A stretch of 64,000 nucleotides of DNA from Naegleria gruberi (lineage: Eukaryota): assembly GCA_000004985.1 (NCBI GenBank), contig GG738883.1, one strand, 5' to 3'. Positions 10,416 to 18,552 of the stretch are shown here, in pieces. The stretch's first letter is position 1, and each line of letters starts with the position of its first letter. The position numbers and the translations under genes are program-made. Under the pieces are notes generated by a model. The model had not been told where the DNA came from and ran no database searches. It saw only the letters and a list, made by a program, of their open reading frames with translations.

Positions 10416-13040
10416 ATGAACAATCGACAACTTCCCTCCAATTTTAACTTTTACGGGGAGACAACAACAGACTATCCCTCTGATTTTAATATGACAACAA
10501 ATTTATTTGATGATTTTCTTGCTTCTTTAACTGAAACACATCTACTCACGGATAGTAATGTAAATACAAACAATAGCATGCTCCTTCCGCATAATGTATC
10601 TTCTAATTTAATACCAACAACATCATCAACAAGTACATCATCATCGTCGACAATGTTGCCACCAATAACGGCACAAGATCTAACCGGTACTACATCTTCA
10701 CAAAACGATTCAAATTCTGGTCAACTTGTTACAAACGTTTCTCTAATTACAAATAATCAAAAATATCCATCAGGAATAATTCAAGATAATGTACATTTGT
10801 TTTTTGGTTCTCATGGTTCTTCAGATACATATAAATTGGAAGTTCAGGTAACGCCAATTGTTGATCAAATGATAATGAGTAATCAAACTAAACTTGTCAT
10901 ACAAGTTAAAAGAGAAAATAGCAAGGAACTTTTGAAGAAGGCTCGTTGGGTATTGTCTTTGGAGAATAGAAAAGAAGAATGTATTTATCTCGTTCAAAAT
11001 AATAATTTTCCAAAAACAAGAAGAGGAAGAGGTATTAACGAATCTTGTTTATTTGCCTTCTCTCTGGAAAATTTACAAAATGTTCCTGAACAATTATTTC
11101 CAACATTTAAATTTCAATTTTACTCCAAGCTCATACCAGGAAGTTTCCCAACAGATTCGTTCACTGTTCCACCATCAACACAACTTTCTAGGCCAGAAGT
11201 ATCCACATCCTCATCATCACCACCTACACAACAAATCATTTCCAATCCACCTATGATAGTAATGGAACAACCAAAACCTGTTATGAATAATATTCTCTTC
11301 CCAGCTTCTGCCTTTAATCAGTCAACCCAATCCTTTGATCCTATGTCACTTTTTAACTCTCTTACCGAACAATCCCAACAACAATCAGATGATCTAATTT
11401 ATCAATCTTCAGGAAAAAAGAGGAAAAAGATAGAAATCTTTGAACCAAAGTTATTCTCAATCAATCCAATGTATGGAACTATTGGAAGCACTGTTGTTTT
11501 ATTGGGCAATTTTAACGTTTTAAGTGAAAAAGCAGTCAAGGTCCATTTTGATCAAGTTGTTGTTGAGCATCCACATGCCGTTACGCCAAATACTATTGTT
11601 TGTACTGCTCCTGATCATGAAGATGGTAACTCTTTTGTTCAAGTTGTAGAAGAATTTGAACACTTCCAAATGAAAACTGAGCACAAAATTTTCAGATATA
11701 TTTCACAAAGCTTCCAAATGGGTATCAACCAACTCGTCTTTAATTCAGGCCCAAGACCTTACCAATCACCACCTTCATATCTTTCTCCTGGAGCTCCAAA
11801 CACTGACTCATCTTCTAGTTCTAACTCTTATAACTCAGGGCAAATGTTTTATGATAGTCTTAGACAAAATAATTTACATAGAGCAGCTTATGATGGTGAT
11901 TTGAGGGCTGTTGTTTCAATTCTTGAAAGCAGATCATGTGATCCATTTGAATTGGACAATTTTAAGAGAAGTCCATTCCACATTGCTTGTGCTATGGGTC
12001 ACTTATCAGTTGTTCAAGCATTATGGACTCATATTGTTGATATTCTTCCTGAAGAAGAGGATGAAGATGAAGACGTACTTGCATCTGTTCTCTTATATCA
12101 ACAGGATAGTTTCTCAATGACACCTCTCGATTTAGCTTCAAAGATTATAGACGACAATGAACATGATGTTATTTTCTTCCTTAAAGACAAATTAGTCACC
12201 TATCCAAACTTGAATACAAAGCTAGGTAATGGTGATCTAGTTCTAGTAGAAAACGAGGTACACGAACGTAAACTAAATCAATTGAAGCACTTATTCCCAT
12301 CCTTTGACGATTTCTTCATTAGAGAAATTCTTGAGAGATGTGGTTGGAGTGAGACAGAAGCTGCTGCTTTGGTTTTATGCCAACAATTTGAATCCAATAT
12401 CTGTGCCAAATCATCTATGACTTCTAAGGAAGTTTTCATGGTAATAGAGAAACAAAAGGCCATCAATCAACTCATTGATTTTATGAACATGTCTCCCTTC
12501 TCAACACTTTTAGCAAACAAACTTTCTAGATTCTTTGATCCAGAGAAGCATTTCGAAAATTATGAAAAGGAAATCAAACACAAGTTTTCTAAAAAGATTT
12601 ACAAGATTGAAAACATTGTTCATCCCGAGCTTCAACTCAGATTCAGCCAATATATCAATCAAGAAGAAAACCCACTGATATTTATGACATTCCACGGAAC
12701 AAGTGAACAAAATGTTTCTAGTATTAAGGAACACGGTCTCTTGGTTCCTGGAAAGGGTAATGATATTAGACCAGTTAATGGTAGCGAGTATGGATTGGGT
12801 ATTTACACATCATTCTCGGGTACTTCATCAATTGAGTATTGTTATGGTGGTAACAAGATGTTTGTTTGTGCTGTGTGCGTTAGGGACAAGATTGTTATAA
12901 GTGAAGATGGAAATGTTCTTGTTGTTTTTGATGAAAGATCAGTATTGCCTTGCTGGCTGATAACATTTGAAAACCGAGTTGAAAATGTTCAAGAACCTGT
13001 CAATATGAACTATAACAATAACCTTCTCAGACAAATCTAA
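10416..13040 (+). CDS. PARP-family ADP-ribosyltransferase with IPT/TIG-like domain, ankyrin repeats, a CUE/UBA-like helix bundle and a C-terminal PARP catalytic domain (H-Y-V type, predicted mono-ART)
   Basis: TIG-like: KLFSINPMYGTIGSTVVLLGNFNVLSEKAVKVHFDQVVVEHPHAVTPNTIVCTAPDHEDG. ANK: SPFHIACAMGHLSVVQALW. CUE-like: LNQLKHLFPSFDDFFIREILERCGWSETEAAALVL. PARP fold: FHGTS...GLGIYTS...NVLVVFDE..VLPCWLITF, with the H-G-S and Tyr positions kept and the catalytic Glu replaced by Val. Single ORF, ATG at 10416. Confidence 0.7.
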   Translation: MNNRQLPSNFNFYGETTTDYPSDFNMTTNLFDDFLASLTETHLLTDSNVNTNNSMLLPHNVSSNLIPTTSSTSTSSSSTMLPPITAQDLTGTTSSQNDSNSGQLVTNVSLITNNQKYPSGIIQDNVHLFFGSHGSSDTYKLEVQVTPIVDQMIMSNQTKLVIQVKRENSKELLKKARWVLSLENRKEECIYLVQNNNFPKTRRGRGINESCLFAFSLENLQNVPEQLFPTFKFQFYSKLIPGSFPTDSFTVPPSTQLSRPEVSTSSSSPPTQQIISNPPMIVMEQPKPVMNNILFPASAFNQSTQSFDPMSLFNSLTEQSQQQSDDLIYQSSGKKRKKIEIFEPKLFSINPMYGTIGSTVVLLGNFNVLSEKAVKVHFDQVVVEHPHAVTPNTIVCTAPDHEDGNSFVQVVEEFEHFQMKTEHKIFRYISQSFQMGINQLVFNSGPRPYQSPPSYLSPGAPNTDSSSSSNSYNSGQMFYDSLRQNNLHRAAYDGDLRAVVSILESRSCDPFELDNFKRSPFHIACAMGHLSVVQALWTHIVDILPEEEDEDEDVLASVLLYQQDSFSMTPLDLASKIIDDNEHDVIFFLKDKLVTYPNLNTKLGNGDLVLVENEVHERKLNQLKHLFPSFDDFFIREILERCGWSETEAAALVLCQQFESNICAKSSMTSKEVFMVIEKQKAINQLIDFMNMSPFSTLLANKLSRFFDPEKHFENYEKEIKHKFSKKIYKIENIVHPELQLRFSQYINQEENPLIFMTFHGTSEQNVSSIKEHGLLVPGKGNDIRPVNGSEYGLGIYTSFSGTSSIEYCYGGNKMFVCAVCVRDKIVISEDGNVLVVFDERSVLPCWLITFENRVENVQEPVNMNYNNNLLRQI

Positions 13041-13385
13041 TTGTAAAATATAATTAAACAAAAGTTTATTCCATTGATCAATGGTTCATTTTCATAATAA
13101 TAATCAGTTGCTTCAGCTTTGTAATAAGCATACTTCATTTCCAATTGAATTTCGTCATTATCATCCCTTGTAGCATAGAGTTTAAATTGACCTTTGTAAC
13201 TACATTGTGGCACCTCTAACAGCTCCAAAGAGATTCATCACACCTGCACATTTAGAAACGAGTACCTTTGGTGATTATTTCTTTAAATTCTTTGGTGAGA
13301 ACCTTCTGGCCGTTGCGTTCCATATTGGATAGTTCTAAATTTGATTGGTGGAATTAATTCTCCTCTTAATGTGAAATTTCTAACA
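13017..13385. repeat. Copy 1 (shorter, internally deleted) of a dispersed duplication; partner at 17822-18552
   Basis: aataaccttctcagacaa(a/c)tctaa...aaacaaaagtttattccatt..ggttcattttcataataataatcagttg(ttg)cttcag(c/a)tttgtaataagcatacttcatttccaattgaatttcgtcattatcatcccttgtagcatagagtttaaattgacctttgtaactacattgtggcacctctaacagctccaaagagattca..cacaccttgcacatttagaaacgagtacctttggtg is shared nearly base for base. Copy 1 lacks ~270 bp plus ~20 bp present in copy 2. Homology ends near ...aattctcctcttaatgtgaaatttct. Confidence 0.7.
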
Positions 13386-13718
13386 TTTTTCAATTATCAT
13401 CATTTCACCATTTTCACCCATATCAATTTTATTCATATTCAATACATCTTTGTATTCGGTTCCATCATGTGGATTGGCGCCAAAATTGATAATGAAACCT
13501 TAATCAAAAAAAAATGCTCAAACATGATCACACCATGCGCTTTATTCTCTCATTGTTCAATGACGGAGATGAATTTGTTTATTTAAAAAATTAGCAATGG
13601 TGAGAAATAGTATCTGAATTTGGTGGGAATTCTAATAATTTATTACTTTGGTTAAATCGTGATGAATGGTGACCAACATTGATCCAGCTGTCAGCATTTC
13701 TAGATTCTTCATAAAAAA

Positions 13719-17712: not shown

Positions 17713-17821
17713 GGAATCAATCAAAGAATTACCAATTTCACTCCCGATGTGAGAATTAGTTATAGAAACCTGTTGTAGAGATTACTACCATAAATCAGTA
17801 ACTCTCAGGATCCGGACTATT

Positions 17822-18552
17822 GCAATAACCTTCTCAGACAACTCTAAATATAATTAAAACAAAAGTTTATTCCATTAAGTAAGGACATGAGCACTCATGT
17901 TTACAACAATACAACCACCTTCCTTTCTCTTTTCACTTACATTACATGCTTTCCTCTTGGTAGACATAATTTGGTTCATTTTCATAATAATAATCAGTTG
18001 TTGCTTCAGATTTGTAATAAGCATACTTCATTTCCAATTGAATTTCGTCATTATCATCCCTTGTAGCATAGAGTTTAAATTGACCTTTGTAACTACATTG
18101 TGGCACCTCTAACAGCTCCAAAGAGATTCACCACACCTTGCACATTTAGAAACGAGTACCTTTGGTGTGCTACTTCTTCTAATCATGATATCTTTGTAAT
18201 AAGAATAGTGCATGCAGGTCTTTGACTTCCTGACTTGCAACGAATTCCATTCTTTCCAGCTCGGCAAATATTTTGTGAAAAATCTTGATATCCACATGGA
18301 CTTTGTTGTAAGAAAACTTTCAATAGAATTGGTTGAGATGTTTGTTTGGTTATCATATTTTCTATTCTTTGAATTCTTCTTTCCTTTTTAGCAACAGATT
18401 TTTCCATGCACTTTTTGTAGGCGATTTTAAGATTTCTTCTTTGATGAGAACCGTCTGGCATTGCTTCCCATATTGGAATAGTTCTAAATTTGATTGGTGA
18501 AGGATTTTTCACAAAAGATGTAATTCTCCTCTTAATGTGTGAAATTTCTGGA
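17822..18552. repeat. Copy 2 (longer) of the dispersed duplication; partner at 13017-13385. Starts with a relic of the last codons plus stop of the upstream PARP gene
   Basis: 17822-17845 aataaccttctcagacaactctaa reads N-N-L-L-R-Q-L-stop, matching the true 3' end NNLLRQI-stop of CDS 10416-13040 at 13017-13040. The following ~330 bp is collinear with 13041-13385 apart from the ~270-bp and ~20-bp stretches deleted in copy 1. This copy lies ~110 bp after the stop of the second PARP-domain ORF (17712). Confidence 0.7.

What the first reader, a model, noticed from the sequence alone, without database searches (positions are those of the whole stretch)
13017..18552. The 3' end and flank of one PARP gene is duplicated downstream of the second PARP-domain gene
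Copy 2 (17822-18552) begins with aataaccttctcagacaactctaa = NNLLRQL-stop, a relic of the last seven codons and stop of the first PARP gene (true end NNLLRQI-stop at 13017-13040). It then follows the same flank for ~330 bp, but retains ~290 bp that copy 1 has lost. So a segment spanning a PARP gene's 3' end plus the 3' end of a convergent minus-strand gene was copied ~4.8 kb away, landing ~110 bp after the second PARP-domain ORF. The two PARP catalytic domains themselves are not similar to each other (H-Y-V vs H-Y-E), so this is not a whole-gene duplication. This points to local rearrangement or ectopic recombination in this PARP-containing neighbourhood.
Basis: seen in the sequence. Interest (0 to 1): 0.55.

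Follow-up and report, generated by a model that had tools for sequence, protein, structure and literature searches.

The report
Duplicated gene-end scar flanking inserted gene
In this Naegleria gruberi chromosome piece, a 0.37–0.73 kb stretch holding the tail ends of two genes that once faced each other is present twice, on either side of a 4.4 kb inserted gene; it is a real but ordinary scar of a past rearrangement.

Summary
The repeat is real. Three colinear blocks match: 13009-13075/17816-17876, 13082-13273/17972-18167 and 13288-13381/18437-18549 (E 1e-14 to 1e-91). Substitution divergence is 3.5%. Copy 2 has 95 bp and 269 bp segments that copy 1 lacks. No third copy lies in the window.

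The window is Naegleria gruberi NEG-M. The minus-strand "gene" is a frameshifted pseudogene of a secreted MACPF/perforin-like family. An intact paralogue, XP_002674582, sits on the same scaffold. The pseudogene's natural stop lies only 19-25 nt from the PARP-gene stop, or from its relic. So the duplicated unit is the last 32 nt of the PARP CDS, a tiny spacer, and roughly the last 240-255 codons of the MACPF-like gene.

Copy 1 is still joined to the PARP gene. Copy 2 is still joined to the rest of the MACPF pseudogene. The 4,434 bp between them carries one complete gene (ankyrin/coiled-coil/kinase/PARP). Its N. fowleri orthologue lies among different neighbours.

Best reading: that gene was inserted between two convergent genes, with a ~0.75 kb flanking duplication, and the useless fragments then decayed. 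This is an ordinary genome-evolution scar of low interest.

The parts
10416..13040 (+). P1: TIG-ankyrin-CUE-PARP (H-Y-V) gene, intact. It is identical to N. gruberi NEG-M XP_002674587.1. Its last 32 nt form the left end of repeat copy 1.
   Evidence: Pfam domains. Identity to P0015. Orthologues and conserved C-terminus.
13009..13381 (.). Repeat copy 1 (373 bp). Block A is 13009-13075, block B is 13082-13273 and block C is 13288-13381. It consists of the end of P1, a 25-nt spacer, and a truncated, internally deleted 3' fragment of the MACPF-like gene on the minus strand (relic stop at 13066-13068).
   Evidence: BLASTN. Minus-strand translation. tblastn with P0016 (PIKFRTIQ..., KLYATRDDNDEIQLEMKYAY).
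13382..17815 (+). Unique 4,434-bp segment between the copies (X). It holds 337 bp of upstream DNA, one complete gene (ATG 13719 to stop 17712: 3 ankyrin repeats with micro-exon arrays, coiled coil, protein kinase, PARP H-Y-E) and 103 bp of 3' flank. The kinase part equals XP_002674588.1 (NAEGRDRAFT_70343). A frameshift lies near 16840-16857 between the kinase and PARP ORFs.
   Evidence: ORFs. Pfam. Sequence. P0006. N. fowleri orthologue in a different neighbourhood.
17816..18549 (.). Repeat copy 2 (734 bp). Block A' is 17816-17876, a 95-bp segment is 17877-17971, block B' is 17972-18167, a 269-bp segment is 18168-18436 and block C' is 18437-18549. On the minus strand it is contiguous with the rest of the MACPF-like pseudogene.
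   Evidence: BLASTN. tblastn with P0016.
17824..17847 (+). Relic of the last seven codons and stop of P1 (NNLLRQL*). It has no ORF upstream of it.
   Evidence: Sequence. Comparison with orthologue C-termini.
17867..19313 (-). MACPF/perforin-like pseudogene. It is colinear with the intact paralogue P0016 (aa 49-544) but read in changing frames, with at least 4 frameshifts, in-frame stops and a ~96-nt deletion of P0016 aa 505-536. The natural stop TAA is at 17869-17867. No recognisable start or signal peptide remains.
   Evidence: Pfam MACPF at 25.4 bits on 18622-19065(-). phmmer hit P0016 at E 9.5e-36. tblastn mapping. Three-frame view.

Best explanation
The repeat is the scar of a duplication-flanked insertion.

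In an ancestor of N. gruberi NEG-M, the PARP gene P1 (+) and a MACPF/perforin-like gene (-) lay tail to tail, with their stop codons only about 25 nt apart. A 4.4-kb DNA segment carrying one complete gene (ankyrin-coiled coil-kinase-PARP, 'X') was then placed between them. A ~0.75-kb stretch spanning both gene ends was duplicated in the process. That stretch is the last 32 nt of the P1 CDS, the spacer, and roughly the last 240-255 codons of the MACPF-like gene. The result is P1-[copy 1]-X-[copy 2]-rest of MACPF.

A staggered double-strand break with fill-in (in effect a very long target-site duplication), or a replication template switch, would give this structure in one step.

P1 kept a complete end through copy 1. 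The MACPF-like gene kept its 3' part through copy 2. The MACPF fragment in copy 1 and the 8-codon P1 relic in copy 2 were functionless and decayed. Copy 1 lost about 360 bp by deletions, and the copies now differ by 3.5% substitutions and 10 indels. The MACPF-like gene was probably already a pseudogene at the time.

Shown: the repeat, its content, the contiguity of each copy with one native neighbour, the pseudogene state, and the different neighbourhood of X in N. fowleri.

Inferred: that insertion and duplication were one event, and the molecular mechanism.
For: (1) Three colinear direct blocks have E values of 1e-14 to 1e-91, and there is no third copy in the window.

(2) Block A contains the P1 C-terminus, which is conserved as NNNLL[K/R]QI* in four other heterolobosean orthologues. 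It therefore originated with P1.

(3) The minus strand of copy 2 plus 18550-19313 is colinear with the intact N. gruberi MACPF protein P0016 from aa 49 to the C-terminal CxCPYL motif. Its stop is at 17867-17869, 19 nt from the relic P1 stop. In copy 1 the same stop is 25 nt from the real P1 stop. The A-B adjacency in both copies requires that the two gene ends were neighbours before the duplication.

(4) An independent metagenome contig from a strain 99.5% identical to the window (L003) reads P1 stop, 26 nt, then in antisense an undisrupted 'GKDHNSFGCSCPYLME*' that matches P0016 'GKDH-SLKCGCPYLV*'. This confirms the convergent adjacency. It also shows that NEG-M copy 1, and copy 2 too, lost sequence there.

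(5) The DNA between the copies is one gene with its own flanks. Its N. fowleri orthologue has ADP-ribosylglycohydrolase genes upstream and unrelated genes downstream, with no MACPF or P1 nearby. No near-identical second copy of X appears among N. gruberi proteins; the best paralogues are 63-66% identical.

(6) In N. lovaniensis, N. fowleri and a third relative, P1 is followed by a pseudouridine synthase gene. The N. gruberi arrangement downstream of P1 is therefore derived.

(7) Between 'KVLVSKC' and 'KLYATRDD' the two copies have 65 and 64 nt, and neither is a multiple of 3. They differ by a single 1-nt gap, so at least one frameshift predates the duplication.
Against: No genome lacking the insertion (an 'empty site') was available. 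L003 stops 85 nt into the repeat, so one event cannot be told from two (duplication, then insertion).

A 0.75-kb target duplication is far longer than usual for insertion events.

The donor site of X in N. gruberi is unknown.

Divergence is uneven: block B has 2/192 substitutions against 10/153 in A plus C (Fisher p = 0.007). A single neutral history does not predict this, so later gene conversion has to be invoked.

The conserved synteny block around P1 is only four genes long and also breaks on the other side. The synteny break at the P1 stop is therefore weak support on its own.

The rest of the NEG-M assembly could not be searched for further copies.
Confidence: 0.6

Rival explanations
1. 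Two separate events. First, a small tandem duplication of the ~0.75-kb junction between the convergent genes gave P1-ABC-ABC-D. Later, an unrelated insertion or rearrangement placed the X gene at or near the novel junction between the two copies.
For: It gives the same final structure. Small tandem duplications are common. The uneven divergence of the blocks shows the region has had more than one event.
Against: X would have to land exactly between the copies, with no duplicated sequence left on the wrong side. That is a coincidence the one-step model does not need. No direct evidence bears on it either way.
Confidence: 0.2
2. Copy-and-paste of the junction fragment. X was already next to the MACPF gene or to P1, and a copy of the P1-end/MACPF-end fragment was inserted ectopically on the other side of X. 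Filler DNA during break repair, or ectopic conversion, could do this.
For: Direct repeats 4.8 kb apart are compatible with local ectopic repair.
Against: Both copies show the same A-B-C order, with the two stop codons 19-25 nt apart. Copy 1 continues seamlessly into P1, and copy 2 continues seamlessly into the remaining ~0.9 kb of the MACPF pseudogene. A pasted fragment would have to replace the homologous end of one gene exactly, base for base. L003 shows the P1-MACPF adjacency directly.
Confidence: 0.08
3. The repeated unit belongs to a dispersed repeat or mobile-element family of the N. gruberi genome, and the two copies here are independent insertions.
For: The rest of the genome could not be searched. 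MACPF-like genes form a small family in N. gruberi (P0016, P0030).
Against: The unit is made of the ends of two ordinary host genes, including a P1 C-terminus conserved across genera. No terminal inverted repeats or other element hallmarks appear at its ends or at the ends of X (and inspection). No other copy lies in 64 kb. No protein in a 5.8-billion-sequence collection matches the conceptual product at E <= 0.01. Two JGI metagenome scans found nothing: an exact 26-mer and peptide patterns from the P1 C-terminus.
Confidence: 0.05
4. Assembly artefact. One copy, or the placement of X, results from mis-joining of reads or haplotypes.
For: No read data could be examined. N. gruberi NEG-M carries allelic variation (from memory of the 2010 genome paper, not checked here).
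Against: The copies differ by 12 substitutions and 10 indels, two of which are large, so they are not collapsed or duplicated alleles. X is unique. An independent metagenome contig confirms the junction of P1 with block A and the MACPF tail.
Confidence: 0.03

Closest known systems
Insertions flanked by long direct duplications of the target (staggered-break repair or very long target-site duplications; gene movement by double-strand-break repair with filler DNA, as described for plant genomes).
   Same: Two direct copies of the target flank a unique inserted segment. Each copy is contiguous with its native neighbour. The insert is an ordinary host gene with its introns and flanks. No transposon hallmarks are present.
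   Different: The duplication of about 0.75 kb is much longer than the few bp to tens of bp usually reported. The donor locus is unknown. No empty site was seen, so the one-step origin is inferred.
Small tandem segmental duplication followed by decay into pseudogene fragments
   Same: The duplicates are truncated, promoter-less gene fragments that accumulate indels and substitutions (3.5% divergence, about 360 bp lost in copy 1).
   Different: The copies are not adjacent. A complete 4.4-kb gene separates them.
MACPF/perforin-like proteins (Pfam PF01823). Naegleria/Willaertia secreted family represented by XP_002674582.1 (NAEGRDRAFT_70333), XP_002680805.1 and Willaertia KAL9658670.1.
   Same: The minus-strand sequence 17867-19313 is colinear with these proteins through the MACPF domain and the Cys-rich C-terminal region ending in CxCPYL.
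   Different: The window copy has at least 4 frameshifts, stops, a 96-nt deletion and no start. It is a pseudogene, and copy 1 is only a fragment of its 3' third.

Membership tests
Duplication-flanked insertion (long target-site duplication) | Two direct, colinear copies of one sequence bracket a unique segment | tested here: met
   Blocks A, B and C are in the same order and orientation at 13009-13381 and 17816-18549. The 4,434 bp between them have no second copy in the window.
Duplication-flanked insertion (long target-site duplication) | Outside the repeat, each copy continues into one native neighbour of the original target | tested here: met
   Copy 1 continues leftward into the intact P1 gene. 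Copy 2 continues rightward into MACPF pseudogene sequence colinear with P0016 aa 49-290.
Duplication-flanked insertion (long target-site duplication) | An unoccupied target (empty site) exists in a related genome | tested here: inconclusive
   L003, from a strain 99.5% identical to the window, shows P1 followed by the antisense MACPF C-terminus, but the contig ends 85 nt into the repeat. More distant species have a different gene downstream of P1.
Duplication-flanked insertion (long target-site duplication) | The insert originates from elsewhere (donor locus, or orthologue in another context) | tested here: met
   The N. fowleri orthologue of X lies between ADP-ribosylglycohydrolase genes and unrelated genes. 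The donor within N. gruberi was not identified.
Transposable-element-mediated gene capture (Pack-MULE or Helitron-like) | Terminal inverted repeats or element termini at the insert ends, with a short fixed-length target duplication | tested here: not met
   No inverted-repeat pair with arms at about 13382 and about 17815 appears in the repeat scan. None is seen by eye. The flanking duplication is about 0.75 kb.
Dispersed repeat family | More than two copies in the genome | not testable with these tools
   Only two copies lie in the 64-kb window. An exact 26-mer scan of JGI metagenomes was empty.
MACPF/perforin-like (Pfam PF01823), minus-strand gene | Match to the MACPF domain model above the gathering score | tested here: met
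   18622-19065(-) scores 25.4 bits against a cut-off of 21.5, E 1.9e-5. It is 50% identical (E 9.5e-36) to P0016, which itself scores 49.9 bits for MACPF.
MACPF/perforin-like (Pfam PF01823), minus-strand gene | Signature (Y/W)-G-(T/S)-H-(F/Y)-X6-G-G (recalled from the literature) | tested here: inconclusive
   The window has FGERVMTQTYYGG and P0016 has FGSQVMTSVLYGG. The G...X6...GG spacing is kept but the T/S-H residues are not. The whole Naegleria family diverges here.
MACPF/perforin-like (Pfam PF01823), minus-strand gene | Intact open reading frame (functional member) | tested here: not met
   Frames change at about 19100, 18640, 18190, 18110-18140, 17945-18010 and 17895. There are in-frame stops, P0016 aa 505-536 are missing, and there is no start or signal peptide. 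No NEG-M protein is annotated for it.
PARP catalytic domain (PF00644), the two flanking genes | Pfam PARP match, and recent common origin of the two domains | tested here: not met
   Both genes match PF00644 (45.4 and 90.5 bits). They share only 35% identity over 52 aa. They are both PARP-family members but not recent duplicates of each other.

The most novel reading that the evidence does not exclude
The structure could record a single-step, transposon-independent relocation of a complete multi-intron gene into the ~25-nt gap between two convergent genes, made by a break staggered by ~0.75 kb. The long duplication would then be what allowed the upstream PARP gene to keep its coding end and 3' UTR. 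That would be an unusually clean natural example of DNA-level gene movement with a very long target duplication in a heterolobosean. It may be polymorphic between N. gruberi strains, since L003 differs at copy 1.
Probability: 0.3. Interest if true: 0.35.

Novelty: new member of a known kind. Interest (0 to 1): 0.15.

Why it matters
The practical value is for annotation and for the local history of this locus.
- The sequence 17867-19313 is a dead MACPF/perforin-like gene, and 13041-13381 is a fragment of it. Neither is a real gene or regulatory novelty.
- P1 and the ankyrin-kinase-PARP gene are neighbours by a recent insertion, not by tandem duplication. Their adjacency should not be read as a conserved 'PARP cluster'.
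- The case gives a dated example of how gene order erodes in Naegleria. The copies differ by 3.5%, against about 1.1% synonymous divergence between two strains.

It opens no larger question.

Tried and rejected
- **Exact-product look-ups.** Look-ups for P1, the F-box/LRR gene, P0006 and the 180-aa minus-strand ORF found no NEG-M contig. The rest of the genome therefore could not be read.
- **Conceptual MACPF translation.** A word-indexed homologue search with a concatenated conceptual translation gave nothing at E <= 0.01. The full phmmer scan with the 147-aa in-frame piece was needed to find P0016.
- **JGI metagenome scans.** A 26-mer from block B and peptide patterns from the P1 C-terminus both found nothing.
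- **MAFFT global alignment.** It mis-aligned block C, so the BLAST local alignments were used instead.
- **Extending homology past the boundaries.** Scores were no better than shuffles. No homology to the MACPF sequence was found in the intergenic DNA downstream of P1 orthologues in three other species.
- **Non-coding RNA in the repeat.** Rfam gave no match at E <= 1 on 12500-20200.
- **Literature.** Searches for Naegleria with 'segmental duplication', 'microexon' and 'MACPF' returned nothing relevant.
- **Whole-unit PARP+MACPF duplication followed by divergence of the PARP gene.** Considered and rejected. The PARP domains are far too different, and homology stops 32 nt inside the P1 CDS.
- **Inversion by staggered breaks.** Considered and rejected. 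That would give inverted duplicates, and these are direct.

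
Full report
**Observation**

The repeat exists as described. BLASTN of 12900-13700 against 17700-19500 gives three colinear direct blocks (alignments).

| Block | Copy 1 | Copy 2 | Identical | Substitutions | Indels | E |
|---|---|---|---|---|---|---|
| A | 13009-13075 | 17816-17876 | 57/68 | 3 | 2 | 4e-16 |
| B | 13082-13273 | 17972-18167 | 190/196 | 2 | 2 | 1e-91 |
| C | 13288-13381 | 18437-18549 | 86/114 | 7 | 4 | 7e-19 |

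- Copy 2 has 95 bp (17877-17971) and 269 bp (18168-18436) that face only 6 and 14 nt in copy 1. Copy 1 is 373 bp and copy 2 is 734 bp.
- Substitution divergence over aligned positions is 12/345, or 3.5%.
- Neither copy matches anything else in the window.
- Local alignments of the flanks beyond the boundaries score no better than shuffled sequence.
- The relic NNLLRQL* is at 17824-17847 and the real NNLLRQI* is at 13017-13040.

**Source organism**

The window is Naegleria gruberi NEG-M.
- The 874-aa ORF 10416-13040 (P1: TIG, ankyrin, CUE, PARP) is identical to XP_002674587.1.
- The next gene's kinase ORF is identical to XP_002674588.1, except for one stretch that the JGI model splices out.
- Both proteins are recorded on a 371,401-bp scaffold.
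- P1 orthologues are 61% identical in N. lovaniensis, 58% in N. fowleri and 48% in Willaertia magna.

**What the repeated sequence encodes**

*Block A.* It starts 32 nt inside the P1 coding sequence. The P1 C-terminus NNNLL[K/R]QI* is conserved in all four orthologues. This piece therefore belongs natively to P1, and the version at 17824-17847 is a relic.

*The rest of the repeat.* It is the antisense 3' part of a MACPF/perforin-like gene.
- The minus-strand ORF 18622-19065 matches Pfam MACPF above the gathering score (25.4 bits against 21.5).
- A full phmmer scan finds an intact 544-aa N. gruberi protein, P0016 = XP_002674582.1 (NAEGRDRAFT_70333), at E 9.5e-36 and 50% identity. Its own MACPF match is 49.9 bits.
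- P0016 is on the same scaffold. Its accession is five before that of P1, and it is not in the window.
- tblastn maps P0016 aa 49-417 onto 19313-18186 in frames -3/-2/-3.
- The C-terminal part maps piecewise in yet other frames:
  - aa 418-434 on 18192-18142
  - aa 456-475 on 18076-18017 (block B)
  - aa 489-504 on 17940-17893
  - aa 537-544 (KCGCPYLV against ECSCPYLM) on 17896-17873
- The stop follows at 17869-17867.
- P0016 aa 505-536 have no counterpart, and there is no start or signal peptide.

This is a pseudogene. A word-indexed search with its conceptual translation found no annotated protein for it.

**Ancestral arrangement**

The MACPF stop lies 19 nt from the relic P1 stop in copy 2. 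It lies 25 nt from the real P1 stop in copy 1, at 13066-13068. Both copies show the same adjacency, so P1 and the MACPF-like gene must have been tail-to-tail neighbours before the duplication.

An independent contig supports this. L003 is a 2,832-nt metagenome contig that is 99.5% identical to the window over P1.
- After the P1 stop and 26 nt, it continues with sequence whose antisense reads 'GKDHNSFGCSCPYLME*', without disruption.
- This matches P0016 'GKDH-SLKCGCPYLV*'.
- The stretch is missing from NEG-M copy 1, as part of the 95-bp gap.
- Most of it is also missing from copy 2, as the aa 505-536 deletion.
- Both NEG-M copies have therefore lost DNA there.

**The DNA between the copies**

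The segment 13382-17815 (4,434 bp) is one gene with 337 bp upstream and 103 bp downstream. It encodes ankyrin repeats, a coiled coil, a protein kinase and PARP (H-Y-E).
- Its N. fowleri orthologue (P0007 on L005) lies downstream of ADP-ribosylglycohydrolase genes and upstream of unrelated genes. No P1 or MACPF is nearby.
- N. gruberi has no near-identical second copy. The best paralogues are 63-66% identical in the PARP part.
- Its PARP domain is only remotely related to that of P1 (35% over 52 aa). A whole-unit duplication is therefore excluded.

**Synteny**

In N. lovaniensis and N. fowleri the order is DP, unknown gene, cNMP-gated channel, P1, as in the window. P1 is then followed by a pseudouridine synthase gene. 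A third relative (L004) also has this pseudouridine synthase gene downstream of P1. No trace of that gene is found in the window. The N. gruberi arrangement downstream of P1 is therefore derived.

One caveat applies. The conserved block is only four genes long and also ends on its other side. A break at this point is not remarkable in itself.

**Model**

Copy 1 is contiguous with P1, and copy 2 is contiguous with the remaining MACPF sequence. The most economical history has three steps.
1. P1 and the MACPF-like gene became convergent neighbours.
2. The 4.4-kb gene segment was inserted, with duplication of about 0.75 kb of the target. A widely staggered break with fill-in, or template switching during repair, would do this.
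3. The functionless pieces decayed.

A tandem duplication followed by a separate insertion exactly at its junction gives the same end state and cannot be excluded. A paste of the fragment next to a pre-existing X is less likely. It would have to replace a gene end base for base.

No inverted repeats or other element termini mark the insert (inspection). No known RNA family matches the region.

**State of the MACPF gene at the time**

Between the segments that align to P0016 aa 428-434 and 456-475, copy 2 has 65 nt and copy 1 has 64 nt. Neither is a multiple of three. The two copies differ there by a single 1-nt gap. At least one frameshift is therefore shared, and the gene was probably already dead when it was duplicated.

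**Age**

Divergence between the copies is 3.5% (12/345). Synonymous divergence between NEG-M and the L003 strain in P1 is 1.1% (6/551 sites). Fisher's test gives p = 0.025. The duplication is probably somewhat older than the split of these strains.

Block B is significantly more similar than blocks A and C (2/192 against 10/153, p = 0.007). This is best explained by a later gene-conversion tract. There is no evidence of selection on it.

**Verdict**

This is a genuine, well-delimited rearrangement scar made of two decaying gene-end fragments around an inserted gene. The kind of event is known and no new function is implied. Interest is low.

Noticed in passing
window 13914-14447 (+), inside the ankyrin part of the gene starting at 13719: There are two arrays of tandem intron-like units (GTAAGT...TAG, about 40-44 nt, very AT-rich), separated by 3-nt micro-exons.
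- Array 1 has 4 introns with AAT/AGA/GAT between them.
- Array 2 has 6 introns with GAT/TAT/AGA/GAT/TAT between them.

Splicing every unit adds N-R-D and D-Y-R-D-Y and gives ankyrin periods of 32-34 aa. Removing each array as one intron would leave only 29 aa. The JGI protein model XP_002674588.1 contains exactly these residues (…IDVNLGNRDSPLY…, …IDVNLTDYRDYSPLY…).

The unit occurs nowhere else in the window. The N. fowleri orthologue has no ankyrin/intron array at its 5' end. No paper on micro-exons in Naegleria turned up. Serial 3-nt exons created by tandem duplication of an intron plus one codon would be unusual and deserve their own look with transcript data.
   Followed up: partly
window 16830-16890: The kinase ORF (14534-16888) and the PARP ORF (16885-17712) of the same gene are in different frames. 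The switch lies in an A-rich stretch near 16840-16857. The NEG-M protein model ends at the same stop (…KFQRNYKI), whereas the N. fowleri orthologue P0007 reads through kinase to PARP in one frame. This is either a real disabling or splitting frameshift, or a homopolymer error in the assembly.
   Followed up: partly
L003 2755-2832 compared with window 13040-13117 and 17847-17893: A metagenome strain 99.5% identical to NEG-M differs structurally just after block A. It keeps an undisrupted antisense MACPF C-terminus (GKDHNSFGCSCPYLME*). NEG-M copy 1 has a deletion there and copy 2 has a different deletion. The locus is probably structurally polymorphic between strains.
   Followed up: partly
window 13082-13273 / 17972-18167 (block B): Block B is markedly more similar between the copies (2 substitutions in 192) than blocks A and C (10 in 153; p = 0.007). 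This is possibly a gene-conversion tract between the two copies.
   Followed up: partly
window 27125-29692 (-): An intact 855-aa PPR protein with E motif and a C-terminal DYW deaminase domain (Pfam DYW_deaminase 133.8 bits). DYW-type PPR proteins outside plants are rare. They have been reported for Naegleria (recalled from the literature, not checked here).
   Followed up: no
window 19432-19818 (+) and 19431-20170: A 128-aa ORF of unknown function (no Pfam match below E 0.03) abuts the decayed 5' end of the MACPF pseudogene. The nature of the ~0.7 kb between the pseudogene and the F-box/LRR gene (20171-21502, -) was not resolved.
   Followed up: no
window 14001-16000 and 62001-64000: GC content drops to 18% in two stretches. 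The first is the intron arrays plus the coiled-coil region. The second, at the window end, was not examined.
   Followed up: no
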